A stretch of DNA of 64,000 bases. Origin: a virus (Duplodnaviria; Heunggongvirae; Uroviricota; Caudoviricetes). Made by a program: the position numbers and the translations under genes. Below are positions 1,915 to 49,765 of the stretch, one piece after another. Numbering within the stretch: the stretch's first letter is position 1; each line of letters starts with the position of its first letter. The DNA is taken from positions 64,228 through 128,227 of the IMG/VR virus record IMGVR_UViG_3300042322_000140. The stretch is one strand, 5' to 3'. The notes under the pieces are model-generated. The model saw only the letters and a program-made list of their open reading frames with translations, made no database searches and was not told where the DNA came from.

Positions 1915-3609
1915 TTAGTTGAAACCTTTTCTTCCAGCTTCGTCTAATTCAATCATTACGAAACGGGTTAAATCTCTAACGTGAATATCTGCGATATTAA
2001 ATGCCCAGAACTCTTGTCCGATTTGTTTCATAGAAGACATTACATCTCCAGCTTTTCTGTAATCATAACGACCATTAGTAGTTCCCCAATAGCACATTTC
2101 GCCTTGTGGTTTTACTAAGTAGATGTTAGCTCCAGAATTACCACCGTCTACTAAAGTAGCACCTTTTGGTAAAGCTTTGTTATTAGAATACATTTGATCT
2201 TCTACATCCCAAATAACCATTGAGTAAGCTGTTGGTGATAAGTTTTCTGGGTGGAATCCACCTGCTAAACGGTCAACACCTTCCATCATGTTCAATGATG
2301 TATCTTCTTCAATTTCTACACTTCCAATTCCTGGAATGAATACTTTTGTAAAACGGATTGGCACATACTCTAAGTTAAATGGATCATTTCCACGAACTGG
2401 GTTAGGTATAGTTCTTTCTGTTCCTAAGAATGTGTTCAATGATGCATTTTGAGAGTTTACTTCATCAGAGAAGATCTCTAAAATGTTTTGGTATGCATAT
2501 TTACCACATTTGAATTTCAAACGTCTTTCAACGTCTTGTTTGAATGGGTTGATACGGAATACATATTCTGCAGCTTCTTTCAAGTGATCACGAGTGATTC
2601 CACCTGGACGACCATACTTAACAAGTTTTCCACGTCTCAATTGGTGCCATAAACCTTCGTTTAATCTAGCAACTCCATTTGAATCACGAACTGTAGCGGC
2701 ACGTTGGAATAAAAGTTTTTGAGCAGTTAAACGCTCTAATTCTCTCATTGTCAAGAACTCCATTGTAGCTCCGATTTTTGCATTTTTCATATCTGGAACT
2801 TTCTTACCACCTTTAGTGATTAAGTTAGTCAATACTGCATAATCGTTACCACCAAATTCAGATTGTAATTTGTCTAAGTAAGATTTAGATTGTGCGTCTG
2901 CTCCAGAGAATGATTTAGAATCAGCCATACCTGTAATGTAAGCTTCAACTCCTGATGCAGATCCTAAACGGAACTCACATCTCATTGTACCTACTGTATC
3001 TGGCATATCAAAGTGCGAGAAGTTAGTACCTCTTTCTCCTAAGATAGCATGTCCTACTTTAAAGTATTGAATACCTTTAGATAAGTTAGAAGCTAAGAAC
3101 CAAGTGCTCTTATCATTGTCTGCTAATTTTACTGTGTGTTCGAATCCTTCACCTACAGCTACTACAGGCTCTTCACCAGAAACGATGATTTGTTGACCGT
3201 AGTATTTATCATTTGATAATACATCTCCTGTTGTAAAAGATCTGTTTAATACAATTTTAAAAGTACTTCCATCAACACCTGGGTAAGCTTGGCTAGATGT
3301 ATCACGAGTTGTATAGCAACCTTTGTACTCTTCTACAGCGATGTCGTATGTGAAACCTCCGTCCCATCCATTAACTTCAAGGATAGCTTTGTTTTGTAAT
3401 AATTCTCTAAGAATACCGTAGCTTCTTACTGCTTGTTTTCCCCACAAGTTCATCAAACCTAAGTGATGCTTGTTTGGGTCTTCTTTGTACCATGAGTAAA
3501 GTGAAGGTAAGTCTTGTGCACCACCGATTGAAGAAACTGTTTTCTTGTCTGTGAACATTATTACTTGGTCTCCATTTACAACGAAGGGAATGTTTTGTTG
3601 TGTTACCAT
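1915..3609 (-). CDS. putative major capsid protein
   Basis: 564-aa ORF directly downstream (minus strand) of terminase, portal and acidic scaffold. This is the canonical TerL-portal-scaffold-MCP order. The call rests on synteny only. Confidence 0.45.
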   Translation of the reverse strand: MVTQQNIPFVVNGDQVIMFTDKKTVSSIGGAQDLPSLYSWYKEDPNKHHLGLMNLWGKQAVRSYGILRELLQNKAILEVNGWDGGFTYDIAVEEYKGCYTTRDTSSQAYPGVDGSTFKIVLNRSFTTGDVLSNDKYYGQQIIVSGEEPVVAVGEGFEHTVKLADNDKSTWFLASNLSKGIQYFKVGHAILGERGTNFSHFDMPDTVGTMRCEFRLGSASGVEAYITGMADSKSFSGADAQSKSYLDKLQSEFGGNDYAVLTNLITKGGKKVPDMKNAKIGATMEFLTMRELERLTAQKLLFQRAATVRDSNGVARLNEGLWHQLRRGKLVKYGRPGGITRDHLKEAAEYVFRINPFKQDVERRLKFKCGKYAYQNILEIFSDEVNSQNASLNTFLGTERTIPNPVRGNDPFNLEYVPIRFTKVFIPGIGSVEIEEDTSLNMMEGVDRLAGGFHPENLSPTAYSMVIWDVEDQMYSNNKALPKGATLVDGGNSGANIYLVKPQGEMCYWGTTNGRYDYRKAGDVMSSMKQIGQEFWAFNIADIHVRDLTRFVMIELDEAGRKGFN

Positions 3610-3651: not shown

Positions 3652-4791
3652 TTAATCGAAATTCAATGATTCAAGAGGAGATATTGGTGATGTCTCTTCT
3701 TGTTTTGTTCTTGATACTCTTGTAGTATCTTGTACAATTTTTATCTTTTTTAAGTTTTCTAACTGTACGTTCTTTTTAGTTTCTGAAGTTACCCTCTTAA
3801 TGTATGTCTCTTTATCTAACATAAATTGAATAAGCTCTTTTGCTTTTTTAGGATCGTTCATCCATTCTTCATATATGTTATCTATTTCAAAAGATCCATT
3901 TTCATCTTTCTTAGTAGCTACATCAACAAACTTTCTAGTTAGGTTTTCTGATACACCTTCTTGTTTAAATTCTGATGCTAAACCTTTTCTATACTCTTTT
4001 ATTCTTTCTACTTCTTCTTTTTGCTCAGCTATAAGTTCTTGCTCTTTATTCTCAAGACCTTTGTAAAATTGTTGTCTTTGATAGTCAACTATTTTTTGAG
4101 CTTTTACATCAATTGTTAAGTCTTTTTTGGAAGATTCTACTAAAGCTCTTGTTTCAGAAGGGCTGTGTCCAATTATATTTTGGTAGTACCATGCTAATAC
4201 TTCTGCATTATGCCCATCATTATCTTCATCATATCCTTGAAAAGGCTCTTTTAAAGATTCTGGGTTTTGAAATAAAGCTTTTGCTAAATCGAGGTCTCCA
4301 CTCTTAACTATATTGATAAGACGTTTTTTAACCTCATCTAACCCCTCAATATCAACATACTTAGATTTTAACTCTTCGTCTTTTTGATCTTTTATGGCTT
4401 TTTCAAGGTTTTTAAAAGTGTCCTTATCTATATTGTCTAATTCAGAAAGAAGTTTTTCTGTACCGTCTTCTGTTTCAATTAGTACGTCTTCCCATTCTCC
4501 TGAGTCTAATCTATCTTTTACAATATCAAAATATATTGCATCTGAATTATTAAAGACTATTTCTTCTTTGTTCTCTTTTTTAGAAGGTTCATTCTTTTCT
4601 ACAACTACTTCTTCTTTTTCTTCTTTGTCGTCATTTTTTTCAGAATCGTCTGAGCTATCTTCCTTTTCGTCTGATAAGTCAATACTAACTTCTTCATCTT
4701 TTTTTGGATTAGCTCCCTCTTCTAATGAAAAATCGTTAAATTCTAGTAATTGTTCAAATGACAGTTCTTCTTGGTTTTGTTCTGTTCTCAT
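3652..4791 (-). CDS. acidic scaffolding-like protein
   Basis: 379 aa, extremely D/E/K-rich and low-complexity (EKEDSSDDSEKNDDKEEKEEVVVEK...). Sits between the portal and capsid genes. Confidence 0.45.
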   Translation of the reverse strand: MRTEQNQEELSFEQLLEFNDFSLEEGANPKKDEEVSIDLSDEKEDSSDDSEKNDDKEEKEEVVVEKNEPSKKENKEEIVFNNSDAIYFDIVKDRLDSGEWEDVLIETEDGTEKLLSELDNIDKDTFKNLEKAIKDQKDEELKSKYVDIEGLDEVKKRLINIVKSGDLDLAKALFQNPESLKEPFQGYDEDNDGHNAEVLAWYYQNIIGHSPSETRALVESSKKDLTIDVKAQKIVDYQRQQFYKGLENKEQELIAEQKEEVERIKEYRKGLASEFKQEGVSENLTRKFVDVATKKDENGSFEIDNIYEEWMNDPKKAKELIQFMLDKETYIKRVTSETKKNVQLENLKKIKIVQDTTRVSRTKQEETSPISPLESLNFD

Positions 4792-4895: not shown

Positions 4896-7673
4896 TTAAT
4901 TTTTGTTAATCTCTGCTATGTATCTATCATTCATCATAGATCTATCTTTTTGCTCTAGTTGTTTAATTTTAACCTCTAGATCTTTACTCATAGCGTCTGC
5001 CTTATCTGTTATTTGTTGTTCTTGTAGTCCTAGTCTTCTATCATTAATATCCATGTCGCTACTTGCCTTCATTTCTTTCAGTGCCATATCTGCTTGTAGG
5101 CTAATATTCTTGAAAGATTTTGCATCTGCGTCTTTGTCTGCGGCTCTACCTTGTGCTTGTATCTCCTCTTGCATAATTCTAGCTTCTCTATCTCTTTGAT
5201 TTTGGTCAGCCAGCCAAGCCCTATCTGCATTTTTCTCAGTAGCTGCACCTTGTATTTGTTTATCAGCAAGTTCTTGCTCGTGAGCTCTTTGTGCTTCAGT
5301 TTCTTTTTGTTTTTCGCCTCTTCCTTTTTTACCTATGGCTACAAGCTCTACTATTGTATCTGCTGAGAATAACTCTGCATAGTCAAGTAAATCGCTTCCT
5401 AAAGTGTTCATATTTAATAGGGCTTGTTTCATTGTTTCAAGCTCTCTACGTTTTTTAGGATCATTTACTGGGAATACTCCAATTCTTCTTAGTGGAAAAT
5501 CTGGATCTGATAAGTGCATAAATATTTTATCCCCATCAGAGTTTGAGAATACAAAATCAACATCTAGGTATTCTTTTTGACAATACTGTGCTATTGATAA
5601 ATGTAGCTCCATAGCTTTTCTTCTAGCAACTGCCATTGTATTAAATATATCAGCTGTTTGCATATAAGAAGCTTCTGTACCTTGTTTTACACCTGTGGCT
5701 GTCTCATACACGCTTGGTTGCCCTAATCTCTGTGGTGTTATACCAATTTGCTCTAAGGCTTTTCTTTGGTAGTATTCAGATAATTGTATTCTGCTATTTA
5801 TTTGTTTGTCAAAAGATATGTCTTGGGTCATGAACGTGTTCATTTGTCCATTTGCCCCTGCCATGTTCTGCTTGGTGGTATCTAAAGGTACTAATCCAAC
5901 ATCTTTTGCTAAATCTCTAAGCTTGCTTAATGACTCTTCAATTGTACCATGGTCTTTGTACTCCGATGGTAAGAAGTTTATATCAAATAAGAAAAACATA
6001 CCAATTTCTTTTTCGAGTAAGTTAAATATCTGGTTTAAACAAATATTATACCCAATTTGGTATGGTCTAAGCTTTTGTGCTATTGAAGATGCTATAATAC
6101 CACCAACTGGTATCTTTACATCAAATATATTAGATTCTCCTCTTATTTGGTAAGGTAGTGGCTCTACTCCTAAGTAAAGATTCTCTGTTAAGAAAGAGTT
6201 ACCAGCATTTATTTTTGTACCTTGCCAAATTTCAGGTACCCAAAACTCATACATACAGTTTGTTTCTAGATCTTTCTGTATATCTTTTAAAGCTTTTGTT
6301 GTAACCTTTTTTATATTATTTTCTTTTACAAATTCAGGTAGTATGTCATCTGTTACAATTGCTGTGTCTTCATATCCTGCTTCTGTTGTATAGTTTATAA
6401 ACCACATTCTTTTCCAGCTTCTCCAGTATGATTCGGTAACTTGTAATAAATCTTTTCTTACATTTATATCGTCTCTTTGTATTCTGCTGTAGTTATATGA
6501 GAGGTTATTATTGTTTTGGAATGGGCTTAGCCAGTTTGGTATTCTTTGTTGTCCGTCTGGTGTGTCTACTAGTACTTCTCCCATTGGTATATCCAATGCG
6601 TCCTGTATTTGTAAACCCATGTCGTAATTATAGTAGTTATGAAAAGGTAAAGTCTGAACTTGTCCAAACATCCCATTATTCATAGCATTTTTCCATGATT
6701 GTACTTGGGAACTAGCATTACCACCATCGGTTTCTGCATAGTTTATATTCAATTTTTTTATCTCATTAGAACTAAGTAAGTGTGAGTACCTTTTTATAAT
6801 GTCTGATGGAGATATATAAAAAACTCTACCAACATACTCACAGTCTTGTGGGTTTTCGGCAGTTACATCTTGTGAAAAGAATGTTTCTAAAGGTGACCAT
6901 CTTTCTGGTTTATAATAGTCATACCCTATATAATAGTTTCTAAAAAATCTTCCGGTAACTAAGTAATCTTCCATCTCTTGTTTGTCCAGCTTGTCCATAT
7001 AGAATCTTTGCTGATCTTTCTCAATAACATGTTCTGCCCACTCTGCGGCTTTTGTTTTCCAGTCTTTCATTTCCTTCTCAATCTGAGATGGGGATACGAT
7101 TTTTGCTTTCTCTTGCTCAAGCATTTGCATATACTGCTGTTGCTCTTCTTCACTTTTGAAATCTTGCTTATTAGGGTTTATCCCCATTTTATTAAGCTCA
7201 ATATCTAACTCTTTTTTGAATGTTTCTAGTGCATACTCTCTAACTCTATTTGTTCTTTCTCTTAGATATTCATTTTGAGAAATATCATCAATAGTGTCTA
7301 CTTTAAAGTCATCTTTTTGTTCAAGCCACTCTCCTACTAACTGTCTAGTAATAATACCTATAAAATCATAATGTTTTACAAATGTAGGTATTCCTACGCT
7401 GTCTCCTAAGTCTCTAACTCTATTTAAAACTTGGTTATCAGTCTCATAGTCTGAATATGCAAGTCTACCTTCTAGCATCTTATAAAGATCTCTGAATTTA
7501 ACATTCTCGCCTAGTTGAGATATTCCTATGGACTCAAGTGCGTCCATATTTTTCTTCTTCCATGCTAGCTTTTCTTTTTGGCTATCAGGAACTGTTTGTG
7601 TTGGAAGAGAGTGGGTAGAAGAAACTGATGTTCCAACCCCATTATAAAAAGAGTGTAAGTTATGACTGTCCAT
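4896..7673 (-). CDS. putative portal protein with long C-terminal coiled-coil/charged extension
   Basis: 925 aa, second gene after TerL. The C-terminal roughly 150 aa are charged with heptad-like repeats. The call rests on position and size. Confidence 0.5.
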   Translation of the reverse strand: MDSHNLHSFYNGVGTSVSSTHSLPTQTVPDSQKEKLAWKKKNMDALESIGISQLGENVKFRDLYKMLEGRLAYSDYETDNQVLNRVRDLGDSVGIPTFVKHYDFIGIITRQLVGEWLEQKDDFKVDTIDDISQNEYLRERTNRVREYALETFKKELDIELNKMGINPNKQDFKSEEEQQQYMQMLEQEKAKIVSPSQIEKEMKDWKTKAAEWAEHVIEKDQQRFYMDKLDKQEMEDYLVTGRFFRNYYIGYDYYKPERWSPLETFFSQDVTAENPQDCEYVGRVFYISPSDIIKRYSHLLSSNEIKKLNINYAETDGGNASSQVQSWKNAMNNGMFGQVQTLPFHNYYNYDMGLQIQDALDIPMGEVLVDTPDGQQRIPNWLSPFQNNNNLSYNYSRIQRDDINVRKDLLQVTESYWRSWKRMWFINYTTEAGYEDTAIVTDDILPEFVKENNIKKVTTKALKDIQKDLETNCMYEFWVPEIWQGTKINAGNSFLTENLYLGVEPLPYQIRGESNIFDVKIPVGGIIASSIAQKLRPYQIGYNICLNQIFNLLEKEIGMFFLFDINFLPSEYKDHGTIEESLSKLRDLAKDVGLVPLDTTKQNMAGANGQMNTFMTQDISFDKQINSRIQLSEYYQRKALEQIGITPQRLGQPSVYETATGVKQGTEASYMQTADIFNTMAVARRKAMELHLSIAQYCQKEYLDVDFVFSNSDGDKIFMHLSDPDFPLRRIGVFPVNDPKKRRELETMKQALLNMNTLGSDLLDYAELFSADTIVELVAIGKKGRGEKQKETEAQRAHEQELADKQIQGAATEKNADRAWLADQNQRDREARIMQEEIQAQGRAADKDADAKSFKNISLQADMALKEMKASSDMDINDRRLGLQEQQITDKADAMSKDLEVKIKQLEQKDRSMMNDRYIAEINKN

Positions 7674-22264: not shown

Positions 22265-22577
22265 AAAAAAATTAGCCCTCTTCCGGTGCACTGGTAAGGA
22301 TCGAAGATGGAGATTACTGATACGATTGAAATAAAAACCTCTTCGGAGTTATCGTATAGGCGAGGATGCTCACCGGAACGTATGCCGGCACAGTTGTAGC
22401 TCTGGGGATAATTCAAAAGCTATAAAATATTGGGGGCAGGGCAAAACCTAGACAGCTTCTAAGCAGGGTTAAATCTGGACAGCCCCCATAATATTGCGTT
22501 AAAGTGTAAAGGTTGCATTCTGGTCTCATAAGTCAGAGGGGTGGTTCGATTCCACGTTACGCTACTAAATATAAAGT
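22265..22577 (+). ncRNA. unclassified structured RNA-like intergenic element
   Basis: ORF-free and GC-richer than the flanks. Long-range helices include CTTCCGGTGC/GCTCACCGGAAC, TGGGGGC/GCCCCCA, GATACGAT/ATCGTATA, and a CUC-UUCG-GAG tetraloop hairpin. A GGTTCGATTCC T-loop-like motif lies at 22543-22553. No cloverleaf could be closed. Confidence 0.35.
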
Positions 22578-46830: not shown

Positions 46831-47643
46831 ATGAAAAAAGTTTTAGCAGTATTTTTAGTGTTAGTAGTAGCAGTGGGTTTTACCTCTTGCGAAAGAGTTG
46901 CTCCAAACTATTATGGAGTGTTGATGGAAAATTATGGTAAGGATGGCAAGGATGACTATTCTAAACAACAAGGTAGAGTATCTACAATTTCTCCGGGGAC
47001 AGAGTTATTTCAAGTACCGGCATGGGAACAACGTGGTAAGTTTACTAATGATGAGGGACAAGACAGAACTTTACAAGTAAAAGCAGCAGATAACACAGCC
47101 TTTACATCTAAGCCGTTATATTCATATAAAGTAATTCAAACTAAAGTTGTAGATGTAGTATTCCAAAATTCTAGGTTAGGTTCTGGAGATGATTTTATGA
47201 ATGCCTTACAAGACAATGTATTGGAGCCAAGAATCTATGATATTATAAAAGAAGCATCAAGAAGTTATACAACAGAGCAATTAATGGCTAATGGTGGTTC
47301 ATTAAGATTTGAGCAATACGTTCAAGATATAGTTACAAAAGAGTTTGAGAAAGCCGGTTTAGAATTAATTAGTTTCAGTTTAAACTTAGACTTCTCTAAT
47401 AAAGTAAAAGCTAAGATTGACTCAAGAAACGAGGTAAATACAAATATCTCTGTTTTGGATCAGCAAATTGCAGAACAAAGAAAACGTAATGAATTGGAAG
47501 TTTTAAGAACTGAGCAAAATAAAATTAGAAGTGCCGGTATTACTCCACAAATATTACAAGAACAAGCAATTCGTAAGTGGAATGGTCATTTACCAACTAC
47601 TTATGCAGGAGGTGGCTTACCATTTGTTAAGGCAGTAAACTAA
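46831..47643 (+). CDS. lipoprotein, possibly SPFH/band-7-like
   Basis: Signal peptide with lipobox VGFTSC. The C-terminal region resembles SPFH domains, tentatively. Confidence 0.45.
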   Translation: MKKVLAVFLVLVVAVGFTSCERVAPNYYGVLMENYGKDGKDDYSKQQGRVSTISPGTELFQVPAWEQRGKFTNDEGQDRTLQVKAADNTAFTSKPLYSYKVIQTKVVDVVFQNSRLGSGDDFMNALQDNVLEPRIYDIIKEASRSYTTEQLMANGGSLRFEQYVQDIVTKEFEKAGLELISFSLNLDFSNKVKAKIDSRNEVNTNISVLDQQIAEQRKRNELEVLRTEQNKIRSAGITPQILQEQAIRKWNGHLPTTYAGGGLPFVKAVN

Positions 47644-48181
47644 TAAAAAATAACCTGTACCCCCGAAAAACTCGTATTTAAAGATAAGCAGGTTAGCTCT
47701 TATATAAAGGGGTATTAGAATAAGAGCAAAGGTGGTGTACCCAACCCGAAATGGGTGCTATTGGTCTCTGAAGAAAAGGGAACGCTTGTGAGTGGCAGTA
47801 CATAACTCTCAAAAATAGCTAAGCTGTGTAAAGCACCAGATCTGATAAACTGTGTGAAGCTATGGGTTAAACATTGAATACCTTTGTAAGAGAACCGTTA
47901 TCTGCACCTTTTAGGTAGTAGAGAGCATACGTCATACTTCCATAAAGATACTATCAGTAATGGTAGATGTGTTGTTCCCTTGAGAAAGGAATGGTTAATA
48001 AAGAGATTAGACTTAATTGTTTGCTATCTACAACACAAATGAGTTCTCAGCAAGTAGTTATGAGATTCGAGCCTGCAAAGTTCTTTGAAGTAACTATGTG
48101 ACCCTACTCTTGGTCCGGCTACGTAAGCTGATGCCGCTTACATGAAAGAGGGTGCTAAATTTTAATTAAAATAAATATAAA

Positions 48182-48355
48182 ATGAAAAAGATTTTCTTTT
48201 TAATGGCTATTATTTTAGCCTTTAGCGTAACAAGTTGTAAACAAGCTAGTGAAGTAAATTCAGATGCAACAACAGATTCAACAGCAGTTCAAGTTGATTC
48301 AAATGGTGTAGACACAACAAGTGTTGATACTACTGCTTTAGATACAGTTAAATAG
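48182..48355 (+). CDS. small Thr/Ser/Asp-rich lipoprotein (57 aa) embedded in the RNA island
   Basis: MKKIFFLMAIILAFSVTSC lipoprotein signal. Below the ORF-track cutoff. Confidence 0.35.
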   Translation: MKKIFFLMAIILAFSVTSCKQASEVNSDATTDSTAVQVDSNGVDTTSVDTTALDTVK

Positions 48356-48529
48356 TATTTAAGGATCGAGGCTTCTTCCTTTGAATGAAGCTACGCTACC
48401 GAAATGATAAGTGCCCTCACACGAGGGATTTTTAAAGAATGTTTTGGGTATGTTGGAAGGGGAAACAAGCACTGTGATCAGTGTGGCATAGAGTTGAGAG
48501 TCCGGATGTCAAAACTCTTTTAAGTCCTT

Positions 48530-48554
48530 GAGGGTTCGAGTCCCTCTACCTAAT
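48530..48554 (+). other. orphan tRNA-like T-arm plus 3' acceptor module
   Basis: GAGGG-TTCGAGT-CCCTC followed by TACCTAA. No 5' partner was found at tRNA spacing. Confidence 0.3.
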
Positions 48555-48590
48555 CGAAATAGTTTGTTGATGTATTATTGAATTTTGTTT

Positions 48591-48856
48591 GGACGGGAGT
48601 TCGATTCTCCCCACCTCCACAAGAGTTTCCTTGAACTATAAACAAGGTGGTGGAGTCGCTGAGAAATCAGAGACCTAACAGTTTGAGGGAGCGTTCTGTT
48701 TAAAAACGTAACAATAGGGGGTGACTGGTTTTGACAGCAATCTAGTAGGTAGTAAGTAGAACTAATTTCAAATTTAAACGACAACGTTTACCAACTTGGT
48801 GGGGTGCAAAGAATTGCAGCTTAACCACGCCTAGGGAGAGCGACATCTCCCTAACT
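48591..48856 (+). ncRNA. candidate circularly permuted (two-piece) tmRNA-like gene
   Basis: Acceptor piece: 48591 GGAC, GGGAG-TTCGATT-CTCCC (T-arm), CACCTCC-A (3' acceptor strand, 48612-48619). Coding piece: 48717 GGGGGTG-A-CTGGTTTTGAC-AGC, which matches the tmRNA 5' consensus GGGGnUGAnnnnGGnUUCGAC. GGGGGTG pairs with CACCTCC (6 Watson-Crick pairs plus one G·U). Tag-like frame ...AAC GAC AAC GTT TAC ... ATT GCA GCT TAA (N-D-N-V-Y...I-A-A-stop, ending at 48824). Then hairpin TAGGGAGA-gcgaca-TCTCCCTA (48832-48853). The tRNA-Met 5' end at 48857 would define the 3' end. Confidence 0.4.
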
Positions 48857-48930
48857 GGTCCTATAGCTCATTCGGTTAGAGCAACTGACTCATAATCAGT
48901 AGGTGCTTGGTTCGATTCCAAGTGGGACCA
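48857..48930 (+). tRNA. tRNA-Met: tRNA-Met(CAU) (elongator or Ile-lysidine type)
   Basis: The full cloverleaf was folded by hand. Acceptor GGTCCTA/TGGGACC (one G·U). U8 A9. D-stem GCTC/GAGC. Anticodon stem ACTGA/TCAGT with loop CT-CAT-AA. Variable loop AGGTG. T-arm CTTGG-TTCGATT-CCAAG. Discriminator A. CCA is not encoded. Confidence 0.9.
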
Positions 48931-49193
48931 CTTAGCAAGGCATAAACGATAAGGAATACTCGTCACAGGTTTATGTTGAGTTGCAGACGGGCCGAAATGC
49001 TTACGGTTAACAAGGCTTAACTCATAAAGTCTAGAGAGCAAAATCTAACGAGTGACTGATGGAAAGACATCAACATGGGAAAGTAGCAGATAAGGTCGCC
49101 CCTGAACTGTGAGTGGGACTAATGTGACGGTCAATCGTAAAGGCTCAAGGTACGTAACAAGTAGTAGTTGGTTGGAGTAAGTGACTTAGCATC

Positions 49194-49217
49194 GGGGGTT
49201 CGATTCCCCCCTTTTTT
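49194..49217 (+). terminator. tRNA-T-arm-like hairpin GGGGG-TTCGATT-CCCCC(C) plus T6
   Basis: Ends the ORF-free RNA island. The hairpin is directly followed by TTTTTT. Confidence 0.5.
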
Positions 49218-49238
49218 ACAAACTAAAAATTATATAAA

Positions 49239-49436
49239 ATGTCAGTATTTAAAGTGTCTTTTATGGGAACTCGAATAGGAGAACATAATGGTAAGCCTAG
49301 TAAAATAAGATTTAAAGTGCAGGATGAAGAAGGTGAAGATTATTACAGTTCAGGGGGAGAACAAAAAATAGAATTTGATATAGACTTAGAGTACAAGGAT
49401 GTAACCAATTTAAAAATAACAGAAGTTTATGAATAA
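49239..49436 (+). CDS. hypothetical protein
   Basis: 65 aa. Confidence 0.4.
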   Translation: MSVFKVSFMGTRIGEHNGKPSKIRFKVQDEEGEDYYSSGGEQKIEFDIDLEYKDVTNLKITEVYE

Positions 49437-49459
49437 AGTAAAAACAAAATTAATATAAG

Positions 49460-49765
49460 ATGAACGAACTATTTAAAAAAACAAAAACAGACAGATTTCA
49501 GTTAGATGAAAACTACTTCCTAGAGTCAGATGGCTACCATGGGCTAACACTATTGTTTGAACAAGCTAGGATGAAGAAGAAAAAAGATGGTAGTGGGGAA
49601 GAAGAATACCTTTATGTAGACAAATGGTACTACCCTAAAGTATCAATGGTTCTCCATAAGTACTTAGAACTTGTAACAAAAGATACAAAATCTATAGAAG
49701 AATTAAGAGAAGTTGTGTTAAGGGTAGAAACAAAAATTGACTCCATTCGAGAGTCATGGAAATAG
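49460..49765 (+). CDS. hypothetical protein
   Basis: 101 aa. Confidence 0.45.
   Translation: MNELFKKTKTDRFQLDENYFLESDGYHGLTLLFEQARMKKKKDGSGEEEYLYVDKWYYPKVSMVLHKYLELVTKDTKSIEELREVVLRVETKIDSIRESWK

What the first reader, a model, noticed from the sequence alone, without database searches (positions are those of the whole stretch)
47650..49238. 1.6-kb ORF-poor, GC-richer RNA island with tRNA-Met, orphan T-arm modules and a T-arm-shaped terminator
Apart from a 57-aa lipoprotein ORF, 1.6 kb is non-coding in a phage that otherwise packs genes tightly. The island contains:
- a perfect tRNA-Met(CAU);
- the tmRNA-like halves described above;
- a third T-arm plus acceptor fragment (48530-48554, GAGGG-TTCGAGT-CCCTC-TACCTAA) with no 5' partner;
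- a final GGGGG-TTCGATT-CCCCC hairpin fused to a T6 run, a terminator that mimics a T-arm.

The left 530 nt (47650-48180) has many helices and no assignment. They could be further ncRNAs, a degenerate tRNA array, or processing signals.
Basis: seen in the sequence. Interest (0 to 1): 0.55.

Follow-up and report, generated by a model that had tools for sequence, protein, structure and literature searches.

The report
Phage stable-RNA operon punctuated by tRNA-like modules
This 1.6-kb stretch of a crAss-related flavobacterial phage is a row of conserved structured-RNA genes: a two-piece tmRNA, a tRNA, and at least two RNA families absent from Rfam, separated by tRNA-shaped modules that probably serve as cutting signals.

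Summary

**Known parts**
- tRNA(CAU) at 48857-48930 (69.5 bits).
- Permuted two-piece tmRNA, RF04321 at 64 bits. Its tag reading frame is conserved in frame.

**Left 530 nt.** This is not a decayed tRNA array. It holds a ~295-nt multi-helix RNA with a pseudoknot (47864-48158), preceded by three optional conserved modules.
- Its invariant 20-mer occurs in 86 IMG/VR contigs and in more than 120 metagenome contigs. It occurs in only 2 of 185,579 species genomes.
- Covariation supports the fold: 95% of cells paired against 40-47% in slid controls, and 17 pairs changed on both sides.
- No Rfam family matches it.
- Its homologue in Cellulophaga phage phi14:2 lies in the interval where published RNA-seq reported abundant, stable non-coding RNAs of unknown function.

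**After the tRNA.** A second unlisted family follows, a ~145-nt RNA with two covariation-supported H-type pseudoknots. It always sits between tRNA-type ends.

**The "orphan" T-arms.** Both have acceptor partners. The "T-arm-shaped terminator" closes a 142-nt tRNA-like module whose acceptor stem covaries.

**Most likely mechanism (inferred).** Host RNase P and RNase Z release each RNA. The functions of the new RNAs are unknown; the context points to translation or trans-translation.

The parts
47650..47733 (+). Module M1. Two hairpins (AACCUG/CAGGUU and GCUCUUAU/AUAAGAGC) whose loops carry complementary CCCC and GGGG. It is an optional 5' module upstream of the left RNA.
   Evidence: 90% identical block directly upstream of the RNA core in L054. 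Also present in L013/L089 and, with an insertion, in L090. The structure was read by eye and by MFE. No covariation test was run.
47734..47813 (+). Module M2, a conserved 5' module. The hairpin GUACCCA...UGGGUGC is replaced by UCCUACA...UGUAGGA in relatives.
   Evidence: Blocks homologous to 47760-47813 lie directly upstream of P1 in L080, L026/L070, L071 and L013, and are present in L090. Compensatory replacement of the hairpin was seen by eye.
47814..47862 (+). Module M3, a hairpin closed by AUAGCU/AGCUAU. It is absent from the closest relative L013.
   Evidence: Found directly before P1 in L005, L023, L025, L026, L057 and L079.
47864..48158 (+). Core of the 'left RNA', a ~295-nt structured RNA.
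- P1: 47864-67 with 47880-83, loop UAAACAUUGAAU.
- P2: 47885-90 with 47937-42.
- P3: 47951-55 with 47962-66.
- P4: 47968-74 with 48031-37.
- P5: 47975-78 with 47988-91.
- Pseudoknot: 47981-86 with 48044-49.
- P6: 48054-60 with 48091-97.
- P7: 48101-04 and 48108-11 with 48146-53.
   Evidence: - nhmmer hit at 47862-48160, E = 5e-40.
- Exact 20-mer in 86 IMG/VR contigs and in more than 120 metagenome contigs.
- Covariation on 52 distinct sequences: 95.2% paired against 40-47% in slid controls, 17 pairs with changes on both sides, 0 of 500 shuffles reached the observed score.
- P1 variants AGG/CCU, AGC/GCU, GUCG/CGAC and CUCG/UGAG.
- No Rfam match here or in 20 homologous loci.
48182..48355 (+). 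57-aa ORF with signal peptide and lipobox (LAFSVTS-C). Probably a real small lipoprotein gene inserted between the left RNA and the leader.
   Evidence: ORF list. The homologous ORF in L013/L089 keeps the frame and the lipobox at 73% nucleotide identity. No Pfam match. Absent in L012, L073 and L080, where the leader follows the left RNA directly.
48352..48428 (+). Conserved 77-nt 'leader' with two hairpins, GCUUC/GAAGC and CCCUC-ACAC-GAGGG. In one-piece relatives it bridges the left RNA and the tmRNA 5' end.
   Evidence: 93.5% identical in L012/L102 and 76-82% in L052, L055, L073 and L080. It ends 3-5 nt before GGGGGTGAC of the tmRNA in L012, L052, L073, L080 and L094, and before a tRNA in L055. 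Both hairpins covary by eye. Listed as terminator-like in WIN only.
48444..48554 (+). tRNA-like module A.
- Acceptor: UUGGGUA (48444-50) with UACCUAA (48547-53), including G3.U70.
- T-arm: 48530-46.
- No normal anticodon arm.
Likely a processing signal that sets the 5' end of the tmRNA acceptor piece.
   Evidence: The MFE fold gives the acceptor stem plus the T-arm. The homologous position in L090 is an 85-nt ARAGORN tRNA-Met. No independent covariation, because WIN and L089 are identical here and a partner is not evident in L091.
48555..48622 (+). tmRNA acceptor piece: P2 3' strand, T-arm GGGAG-UUCGAUU-CUCCC (48595-48611), acceptor 3' strand CACCUCC (48612-18), discriminator A. CCA is not encoded.
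   Evidence: Rfam RF04321 tmRNA_permuted at 48562-48824, 64.1 bits against a gathering score of 47. ARAGORN 3' tRNA domain at 48584-48620.
48623..48716 (+). Intervening segment of the permuted tmRNA gene. Its first half is invariant in relatives and contains GGUGGUGGAG, which can pair with the acceptor 3' strand.
   Evidence: Alignment A2. Unaligned insert in the Rfam alignment.
48717..48856 (+). tmRNA coding piece.
- Acceptor 5' strand GGGGGUG (48717-23; G3.U70 with the acceptor piece).
- P2 5' strand.
- Tag frame 48777/48780-48824: (N)DNVYQLGGVQRIAA*.
- Hairpin at 48832-48853.
It ends at the tRNA 5' end.
   Evidence: Rfam. ARAGORN 5' tRNA domain at 48717-45. The tag frame is conserved in WIN, L089, L090 and L091, with a 3-nt indel and synonymous changes (GGG/GGT/GGC, GCT/GCC/GCG).
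48857..48930 (+). tRNA with anticodon CAU. It is elongator-Met type or tRNA-Ile2 type, not an initiator.
   Evidence: ARAGORN. Rfam 69.5 bits. Relatives carry different tRNA(CAU) sequences at the same position.
48931..49076 (+). 'PK RNA', a ~145-nt RNA.
- First H-type pseudoknot: S1 48940-47 with 48969-76, interleaved with S2 48959-64 with 48986-91.
- Hairpin: 48992-94 with 49004-06.
- Second H-type pseudoknot: S4 49013-17 with 49028-32, interleaved with S5 49020-23 with 49050-53.
- 3' hairpin at 49057-72 with a GAAAGA loop.
   Evidence: - 20-mer in 22 IMG/VR contigs.
- nhmmer E = 8e-47.
- 99.7% of cells paired against 22-40% in slid controls, and 8 pairs with changes on both sides.
- Always bounded by a tRNA-type 3' end upstream and by a tRNA-like or tmRNA 5' end downstream.
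- No Rfam match.
49077..49218 (+). tRNA-like module C.
- Acceptor: GGGAAAG (49077-83) with CUUUUUU (49211-17).
- D-like hairpin: 49086-89 with 49107-10.
- Long internal domain.
- T-arm: 49194-49210.
- Discriminator: A49218.
Its T-stem plus U-run also has the form of an intrinsic terminator.
   Evidence: All 16 tested pairs are paired in WIN, L089, L090 and L091, and 4 pairs show changes on both sides. RNAalifold consensus. Terminator-like pattern.

Best explanation
The island is a co-oriented cluster of stable-RNA genes (an "RNA operon") in a crAss-related phage of Flavobacteriia.

**Gene order**
1. A large structured RNA: optional modules M1-M3 plus a ~295-nt core.
2. A small lipoprotein ORF.
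3. A 77-nt structured leader.
4. tRNA-like module A.
5. The acceptor piece of a permuted tmRNA.
6. An intervening segment.
7. The tmRNA coding piece.
8. tRNA(CAU).
9. A 145-nt double-pseudoknot RNA.
10. tRNA-like module C.

**Shown**
- Each of these parts is conserved in other phages.
- The left RNA, the PK RNA and module C have folds supported by compensatory changes.
- From the leader to the end of the island, every junction between RNAs coincides with the 5' or 3' edge of an acceptor stem, or lies within about 15 nt of one (leader to module A).

**Inferred**
- Longer rightward transcripts are cut by the host's RNase P at each acceptor 5' end. They are cut by RNase Z or exonucleases after each discriminator.
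- The tRNA-shaped modules therefore act as punctuation that releases the tmRNA pieces, the tRNA and the PK RNA with defined ends.
- Module C both caps the last RNA and stops transcription.
- The tmRNA adds the tag (A)NDNVYQLGGVQRIAA to stalled chains. The tRNA(CAU) supplements decoding.
- The left RNA and the PK RNA are abundant trans-acting RNAs that act on the translation or trans-translation machinery. This last step is the weakest; their functions are unknown.
For: **Known parts**
- tRNA and permuted tmRNA exceed Rfam gathering scores.
- ARAGORN finds the same tRNA domains.
- The tag frame is conserved with an in-frame indel and synonymous changes.

**Left RNA**
- 86 viral and more than 120 metagenome contigs share an invariant 20-mer. 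Only 2 of 185,579 species genomes do.
- Covariation test: 95.2% of cells paired, 17 pairs changed on both sides, and 0 of 500 shuffles reached the observed score.

**Expression**
- The phi14:2 homologue (2913-3361) and its tmRNA (4031-4502) fill the g004-g006 interval.
- RNA-seq found the two long intergenic regions of that interval transcribed rightward above most genes, early and persistently (bioRxiv 10.1101/2020.03.07.982082).

**PK RNA**
- 22 contigs carry it.
- 99.7% of cells are paired, and two pseudoknots have compensatory pairs.

**Punctuation**
- The PK RNA always starts 1-2 nt after a tRNA-type 3' end. It ends at a tRNA-like or tmRNA 5' end.
- The left RNA directly abuts a tRNA 3' end in L042 and L078.
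- The leader ends at the tmRNA or tRNA 5' end in six loci.
- All 85 tRNA and tmRNA genes within 1.5 kb of the left RNA are on its strand. tmRNAs occur only immediately next to it, 11 of 106 downstream and 0 in farther windows. By Rfam, 5 of 20 loci have one.
- Module C's acceptor stem covaries.
Against: - No transcript ends, RNase P cleavage or expression data exist for this phage. Processing is inferred from gene geometry.
- The left RNA in the window is not bounded by a tRNA-like module on its 5' side, and a protein ORF follows it. At least that part may have its own promoter or ends.
- Module A has no independent covariation, and its partner is unclear in L091.
- Module C rests on four sequences, and its slid controls are high (62-77%) because the stem is A/G against U.
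- The MFE of the left region is not better than shuffles.
- No conserved protein partner or target was found for the new RNAs, so the proposed translation-related role is a guess from context.
Confidence: 0.65

Rival explanations
1. Relics of gene rearrangement. The extra T-arms, the pseudo-acceptor in the intervening segment and the region after the tRNA are decaying leftovers of the tandem duplication that created the permuted tmRNA gene. They have no function of their own.
For: - Four T-arms lie in 680 nt.
- The intervening segment carries a GGUGGUG pseudo-acceptor strand.
- The start of the PK RNA (UAAACGAUAAGGAAUAC) resembles the tag start (UAAACGACAACGUUUAC), and ARAGORN takes it for a resume site.
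- Relatives such as L012 and phi14:2 have one-piece tmRNAs.
Against: - The PK RNA occurs in phages with no adjacent tmRNA, between unrelated tRNA-like genes. It is more conserved than the tRNAs beside it and has compensatory changes in both pseudoknots.
- A profile of the PK RNA finds nothing inside one-piece tmRNAs of relatives.
- Module C keeps its acceptor stem through compensatory changes.
Confidence: 0.12
2. The terminal GGGGG-TTCGATT-CCCCC-T6 element is simply an intrinsic terminator for the operon. Its T-loop-like loop is incidental or inherited.
For: A 5-bp all-G:C stem with a 7-nt loop is followed by T6, the top hit of the terminator scan. It sits at the end of the RNA cluster, just before the next ORF.
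Against: - The loop UUCGAUU is invariant while the stem covaries (GGGGG/CCCCC, GGGGG/CCUCC, GAAGG/CCUUC).
- The U-rich tract pairs with a purine tract 128 nt upstream in all four relatives, with an A-U to G-C change.
- In L090 and L091 the tract is CUCUUUU, a weaker terminator tail.
- The two roles are compatible, so this is a partial rival only.
Confidence: 0.25
3. The left 530 nt is a cis-acting leader, either the 5' UTR or regulator of the lipoprotein ORF or a long 5' leader of the tmRNA precursor. It is not an independent RNA.
For: - The ORF starts 24 nt after the RNA core in the window, and similarly in L018 and L026.
- In L012, L073 and L080 the order left RNA, 77-nt leader, tmRNA is contiguous.
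Against: - Downstream neighbours differ widely: tRNA, tmRNA or various ORFs. No protein family is constant.
- In L042 and L078 it begins right after a tRNA.
- The phi14:2 intergenic transcripts stay abundant when other early mRNAs decline, as expected of a stable RNA.
Confidence: 0.15
4. The left RNA is a divergent member of a known large phage RNA class (GOLLD or ROOL) or of another catalogued RNA such as RNase P RNA.
For: - Same kind of context: GOLLD and ROOL are phage or prophage RNAs often near tRNA islands, and GOLLD has a conserved 3' part and a variable 5' part (PMC12286853).
- Short resemblances to E. coli RNase P RNA (AGAGAGCAAA; GAAAG-GGUGC) were noticed.
Against: - No Rfam family, GOLLD, ROOL and RNase P included, matches at E <= 10 in the window or at E <= 1 in 20 homologous loci.
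- The RNase P resemblances fall on E. coli-specific or differently paired positions of RF00010.
Confidence: 0.05

Closest known systems
Permuted (two-piece) tmRNA genes, Rfam RF04321 tmRNA_permuted (PMC11915505)
   Same: - The acceptor piece is encoded upstream of the coding piece.
- It has a T-arm, a G3.U70 acceptor stem, and a tag frame ending in AA plus a stop codon.
- It scores above the curated threshold.
- The transcript is expected to be cut by tRNA-processing enzymes (PMC11915505).
   Different: - It is phage-borne in a Bacteroidota-type phage. The model was merged from alpha-proteobacterial, beta-proteobacterial and cyanobacterial families.
- No PK1 is aligned.
- The coding piece is short and ends at a tRNA gene.
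- The acceptor piece begins at a tRNA-like module.
- Part of the intervening segment is conserved.
GOLLD and ROOL large ornate RNAs of phages and prophages
   Same: - Large, multi-helix, pseudoknotted RNAs.
- Encoded by phages, often beside tRNA genes.
- Highly expressed, with no known protein partner and unknown function.
- Conserved core plus a variable part (PMC12286853).
   Different: - No sequence or structure match to their Rfam models.
- Smaller: a ~295-nt core, ~510 nt with modules.
- Practically absent from bacterial genomes.
- Specifically adjacent to tmRNA genes.
- Multimer formation was not tested.
tRNA punctuation of polycistronic transcripts, as in mitochondrial genomes, and the phage T4 tRNA cluster with its two small stable RNAs of unknown function (from my own knowledge)
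   Same: Non-tRNA RNAs lie flush against tRNA-shaped elements, so RNase P and RNase Z can define their ends. Stable RNAs of unknown function are embedded in a phage tRNA region.
   Different: Here two of the punctuation marks are non-decoding tRNA-like modules of 111 and 142 nt with large inserts. The released RNAs are tmRNA pieces and new RNA families. Processing has not been shown.
Pseudoknot strings next to tRNA-like domains: tmRNA PK2-PK4, and the upstream pseudoknot domain plus tRNA-like structure of plant virus 3' ends (from my own knowledge)
   Same: Consecutive H-type pseudoknots lie directly next to a tRNA-like acceptor/T-arm domain.
   Different: No sequence homology to tmRNA pseudoknot regions of related phages. 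The PK RNA is probably cut away from the tRNA-like module rather than being part of one molecule.
tmRNA-like RNAs without a tag reading frame, such as the form in mycobacteriophage DS6A (PMC11915505)
   Same: Module C has the tmRNA-like topology: 5' acceptor strand, internal domain, T-arm, 3' acceptor strand. It has no reading frame.
   Different: G3.U70 is not conserved among relatives: A3-U70 in L089, L090 and L091. Alanine charging is therefore unlikely. It is much longer than the ~65-nt forms.

Membership tests
tmRNA, permuted form (RF04321) | Covariance-model score at or above the curated gathering score | tested here: met
   64.1 bits against 47 at 48562-48824. A similar hit occurs in Maribacter phage Panino, where it is annotated as tmRNA.
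tmRNA, permuted form (RF04321) | 3' tRNA-like half (T-arm plus acceptor 3' strand) encoded upstream of the 5' half, with an acceptor stem carrying G3.U70 | tested here: met
   CACCUCC (48612-18) lies upstream of GGGGGUG (48717-23). Pairing gives G-C, G-C, G.U, G-C, G-C, U-A, G-C.
tmRNA, permuted form (RF04321) | Tag reading frame ending in a stop codon and evolving as coding sequence | tested here: met
   NDNVYQLGGVQR(R)(I/F)AA* in four relatives, with a 3-nt indel and synonymous third-position changes. The alternative ARAGORN tag lies in paired PK RNA and has an in-frame TAG in L095, L167 and L177.
tmRNA, permuted form (RF04321) | Cleavage into two base-paired pieces, alanylation and SmpB-dependent tagging | not testable with these tools
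   Needs Northern blots or end mapping, aminoacylation assays and detection of tagged proteins.
tRNA (RF00005) | Cloverleaf with a 7-nt anticodon loop, and a score above threshold | tested here: met
   48857-48930 scores 69.5 bits with anticodon CAU. Modules A and C are not called as tRNA by either tool, so they are tRNA-like and not tRNAs.
Intrinsic (Rho-independent) terminator | G+C-rich hairpin followed directly by a U-run, conserved as such | tested here: inconclusive
   Met in the window (5 G:C pairs plus T6). In L090 and L091 the tail is CUCUUUU, and the tract is also the acceptor 3' strand.
   The left RNA, the PK RNA and module C keep their pairs through compensatory changes. The left 530 nt contains no T-loop at all.
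GOLLD (Rfam) and ROOL (Rfam) | Match to the family covariance model | tested here: not met
   No hit at E <= 10 in 47300-49600 nor at E <= 1 in 20 loci that carry the left RNA.
GOLLD and ROOL | Phage-encoded large RNA near tRNA genes, abundant, no protein partner | tested here: met
   Context. Expression of the phi14:2 homologue. No constant neighbouring protein. This is a resemblance in kind only.
Bacterial RNase P RNA class A (RF00010) | Model match and conserved regions CR-I to CR-V | tested here: not met
   No hit. The short similarities are to E. coli-specific bases or to the P13 stem, not to the consensus.

The most novel reading that the evidence does not exclude
The left RNA (core 47864-48158) founds a previously undescribed class of large, phage-restricted structured RNA. 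It is common in aquatic phages from ~100-kb crAss-like genomes to contigs above 300 kb. It is expressed early and stably, and it is physically coupled to phage tmRNA genes through a conserved leader. It would work with tmRNA or the ribosome during takeover of host translation. The tRNA-flanked double-pseudoknot RNA would be a second new class in the same pathway.
Probability: 0.4. Interest if true: 0.8.

Novelty: new variant of a known kind. Interest (0 to 1): 0.68.

Why it matters
Phage tRNA islands are known to hide large RNAs of unknown function, such as GOLLD and ROOL. This island adds two structured-RNA families that I found neither in Rfam nor described as families in the searched literature.

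- One family is widespread in marine and freshwater viral sequence and almost absent from cellular genomes.
- It corresponds to the abundant "long non-coding RNA of unknown function" region seen by RNA-seq in the culturable crAss-like model phage phi14:2. The family can therefore be tested genetically and biochemically at once.
- Its tight linkage to phage tmRNA genes gives a concrete lead on why phages carry tmRNA at all.
- Non-decoding tRNA-like modules used as punctuation would be a compact way for a virus to borrow host RNase P and RNase Z to mature any RNA.
- For annotation, these regions are currently filled with spurious small ORFs or mis-called tmRNA tags.

Tried and rejected
- **RNase P RNA.** I noticed AGAGAGCAAA, GAAAG.GGGUGC.UAA and AGCAAGGCAUAAA, which resemble E. 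coli M1 RNA. I checked my recalled sequence (100% identity) and the RF00010 consensus. The first motif is E. coli-specific (the consensus is ACAGAAAACA), and GGUGCG is the P13 stem there. There is also no model hit. Rejected.
- **GOLLD, ROOL or any Rfam family for the left RNA or PK RNA.** No hits.
- **"Three-piece tmRNA", with the PK RNA as the PK2-PK4 part of the tmRNA cut off by the inserted tRNA.**
  - A PK RNA profile finds nothing in one-piece tmRNAs of relatives.
  - The PK RNA occurs without a tmRNA.
  - A 12-nt complementarity between the acceptor piece and 49064-75 is weakened by a mismatch in L089.
  - Not supported, though a structural analogy is not excluded.
- **ARAGORN's tag DKEYSSQVYVELQTGRNAYG.** Rejected. 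It lies beyond the tRNA, inside covarying stems, and has an in-frame stop in three relatives.
- **Thermodynamic support for the left region.** The z-score is -0.73, which is uninformative.
- **A constant protein partner near the left RNA.** None found. The only recurrent neighbour, a ~300-aa ORF in 24 loci, has no Pfam match.
- **Annotated phage genomes.** BLAST found only phi14:2 for the left RNA and nothing for 48931-49240.
- **Literature.** Searches found no description of these RNAs beyond the phi14:2 RNA-seq remark.
Full report
**Observation**

The interval 47650-49238 is as described in most respects.
- The only credible ORF is the 57-aa lipobox ORF at 48182-48355.
- G+C is 0.40, against 0.335 for the window and 0.34 for both flanks.
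- The quoted sequences are at the quoted coordinates.
- ARAGORN and Rfam agree on tRNA(CAU) at 48857-48930, which scores 69.5 bits.
- All four perfect TTCGA-type T-arm hairpins of the 64-kb window lie within 680 nt on the + strand of the island.

The portal protein is 40% identical to those of Cellulophaga phages phi4:1 and phi17:2, and more distantly related to crAss-like phages. The host is therefore probably a member of the Flavobacteriia.

**tmRNA**

Rfam's permuted-tmRNA model (RF04321) scores 64.1 bits against a gathering score of 47 at 48562-48824. This model was built from alpha-proteobacterial, beta-proteobacterial and cyanobacterial two-piece tmRNAs (PMC11915505).
- The acceptor 3' strand CACCUCC (48612-18) lies upstream of the 5' strand GGGGGUG (48717-23). 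Together they form a stem with G3.U70.
- ARAGORN's verbose output names the same two tRNA domains.
- The tag frame ends at TAA 48822-24 and reads (N)DNVYQLGGVQRIAA. In three relatives it keeps its frame through a 3-nt indel and synonymous changes.
- ARAGORN's own tag is wrong. It lies beyond the tRNA, inside base-paired RNA, and carries an in-frame TAG in three relatives.

**Left 530 nt**

BLAST against annotated phages found one relative, the crAss-like Cellulophaga phage phi14:2. Conserved blocks there are separated by inserts of variable length.
- *Distribution.* An invariant 20-mer from the middle block occurs in 86 IMG/VR contigs of 5 to 373 kb. It occurs in only two of 185,579 species-representative genomes, both MAG contigs.
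- *Fold.* All members share a hairpin with the loop UAAACAUUGA (P1), helices P2-P7, and a six-pair pseudoknot between the P5 loop and the invariant junction.
- *Covariation.* On 52 distinct sequences, 95.2% of cells form pairs, against 40-47% when partners are slid. Seventeen pairs change on both sides. None of 500 shuffles reaches the observed covariation score. P1 also shows several compensatory variants.
- *Copy number.* A profile finds exactly one copy in the window, at 47862-48160, E = 5e-40.
- *Upstream sequence.* 47650-47862 is made of three further modules, each of which recurs directly upstream of P1 in different subsets of phages.
- *Known families.* No Rfam family matches in the window at E <= 10 or in 20 homologous loci at E <= 1.
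- *Thermodynamics.* Folding alone is uninformative, with a z-score of -0.73.

**Expression**

The phi14:2 study reports that two long intergenic regions, the g004-g005 and g005-g006 junctions, are transcribed rightward more strongly than most genes. They are present at the first time point and do not decline. The authors call them long non-coding RNAs of unknown function (bioRxiv 10.1101/2020.03.07.982082).

In RefSeq, g004 ends at 2904 and g006 starts at 4602. That interval contains the left-RNA homologue (2913-3361) and a one-piece tmRNA (4031-4502). Assigning the two transcripts to these two RNAs is my inference.

**Context of the left RNA**
- All 85 tRNA and tmRNA genes within 1.5 kb of the left RNA in 177 distinct contexts are on its strand.
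- tmRNA genes occur only immediately next to it: 11 of 106 downstream windows, one upstream, and none farther away.
- Rfam finds a tmRNA just downstream in 5 of 20 loci.
- In L012, L052, L073, L080 and L094 a conserved 77-nt two-hairpin leader fills the gap between the left RNA and the tmRNA 5' end. This leader is 48352-48428 in the window. In L055 it precedes a tRNA.
- In L042 and L078 the left RNA starts right after a tRNA.
- No protein family is a constant neighbour.
- The SPFH-domain gene upstream is syntenic only in the closer relatives.

**Right part**

Relatives found through the SPFH protein (L089, L090, L091, L095) share 48533-49260 at 77-94% identity. In all of them a tRNA, a different one in each, is followed at once by TTAGCAAGGCATAAACGATAAGG. 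This stretch is more conserved than the tRNA itself.
- A 20-mer from it occurs in 22 IMG/VR contigs.
- The element is always bounded upstream by a tRNA-type 3' end. Downstream it is bounded by the 5' end of a tRNA-like gene or of a tmRNA.
- Its fold has two successive H-type pseudoknots, a hairpin and a 3' hairpin with a GAAAGA loop.
- 99.7% of cells are paired, against 22-40% in slid controls. Eight pairs change on both sides, including pairs in all four pseudoknot stems.
- It has no Rfam match and no detectable homology to tmRNA pseudoknot regions of related phages.

**The "orphan" T-arms**
- *Terminal hairpin.* It is the T-arm of a 142-nt tRNA-like module. GGGAAAG (49077-83) pairs with CUUUUUU (49211-17). 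L089, L090 and L091 have GGAAAAG/CUUUUUU, GAAAGAG/CUCUUUU and GGAAGAG/CUCUUUU. The T-stem and a D-like hairpin also covary. All 16 pairs are formed in all four sequences. The hairpin plus T6 still looks like a terminator, so a double role is likely. G3.U70 is not conserved, so alanine charging is unlikely.
- *T-arm at 48530.* It also has a partner: UUGGGUA (48444-50) pairs with UACCUAA (48547-53), and the MFE fold forms both stems. At the same place L090 has an 85-nt ARAGORN tRNA-Met. This module lacks independent covariation.

**Synthesis**

From the leader onward, every boundary between conserved RNAs coincides with the edge of an acceptor stem, or lies within about 15 nt of one (leader to module A). 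The order is:
1. leader
2. module A
3. tmRNA acceptor piece
4. intervening segment
5. coding piece
6. tRNA
7. PK RNA
8. module C

The simplest reading is a rightward stable-RNA operon whose products are released by host RNase P and RNase Z, with tRNA-like modules as punctuation. The geometry and conservation are shown. The processing is inferred.

The functions of the left RNA and the PK RNA are unknown. Their invariant unpaired sequences suggest a conserved host target in translation or trans-translation, as do the lack of a phage protein partner and the linkage to tmRNA and tRNA genes. That is a hypothesis.

**Comparison and novelty**

The tRNA and tmRNA are ordinary members of known families, although a permuted tmRNA in such a phage is unusual.

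The left RNA resembles GOLLD and ROOL in kind: it is phage-borne, large, pseudoknotted, near tRNA genes, abundant and without a known partner (PMC12286853). It fails their model tests.

The arrangement recalls tRNA punctuation and the T4 tRNA cluster with its unexplained stable RNAs (my own knowledge). I rate the island a new variant of a known kind. It contains two RNA families that I could not find described.

Noticed in passing
window 22495-22564 (+): A weak tRNA-like hit (Rfam 32.2 bits, just above the threshold of 29, anticodon-loop CUCAUAA) that ARAGORN does not call. It may be another non-canonical tRNA-like element far from the island.
   Followed up: no
L089 about 5820-6243 (same contig as L013): An ORF with an HNH-type motif (HVDHIDNN...N) is inserted exactly between the tRNA and the PK RNA of the closest relative. 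The window lacks it. This suggests a homing-endonuclease insertion at the tRNA/PK junction.
   Followed up: partly
L091 about 6537-6680; also L159 and L178: A tRNA-like gene (GTCAGGTGGCGGAATTGGTAGACGC...GGTTCGAGACCTGTCCTGACA) is inserted in the 3' hairpin region of the PK RNA. It is flanked by a ~25-nt duplication (TGACTGATAGGAAAGACTATCAAAAT / TGACTGATGGAAAGACATCAAAT).
   Followed up: partly
L160-L177, regions flanking the PK RNA: Arrays of odd tRNA-like genes of 91-96 nt. All share the acceptor stem AGUCAGG/CCUGACU, a class-II-type D-arm (GCGGAAUUGGUAGACGC) and the T-arm ACAGG-UUCGAAU-CCUGU, but differ in the middle. ARAGORN calls them Tyr, Cys, Thr, Pro or undetermined. The same scaffold with different anticodon regions is unexplained.
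   Followed up: no
window 48857-48930; L019 7073-7148: The tRNA(CAU) is 100% identical to a tRNA in an otherwise unrelated contig (L019). It has C4:G69 and C5:G68, which I recall as marks of tRNA-Ile2 (the lysidine-modified AUA decoder) rather than tRNA-Met. Its identity is unresolved.
   Followed up: no
window 48623-48716: The first half of the tmRNA intervening segment is invariant in four relatives. It contains GGUGGUGGAG, which can pair with the acceptor 3' strand and looks like a pseudo 5' acceptor strand with U3.U70. It could be a processing hairpin or a duplication relic.
   Followed up: partly
window 48941-48958 and 48773-48791: The start of the PK RNA (CAUAAACGAUAAGGAAUA) resembles the tmRNA resume region (AUUUAAACGACAACGUUU) closely enough that ARAGORN picks it as the tag start. 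This is either chance or shared ancestry.
   Followed up: partly
L180 and L181 (GTDB genomes): The only two cellular-genome hits for the left-RNA 20-mer are MAG contigs labelled Clostridium sp., one of them 100,089 bp long. These are probably phage contigs binned into bacterial MAGs.
   Followed up: no
window 49239-49436: The 65-aa ORF right after the island is absent from the closest relative. In L089 the sequence jumps from the module C terminator to the homologue of 49439 onward. It is a small indel-type accessory gene.
   Followed up: no
24 of 87 left-RNA loci, about 0.3-1.2 kb downstream (for example L016): A recurrent ~300-aa ORF (MVMKNIHILLTEKSS...) with no Pfam match lies downstream of the left RNA in one group of phages. 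It is not present in the window.
   Followed up: partly
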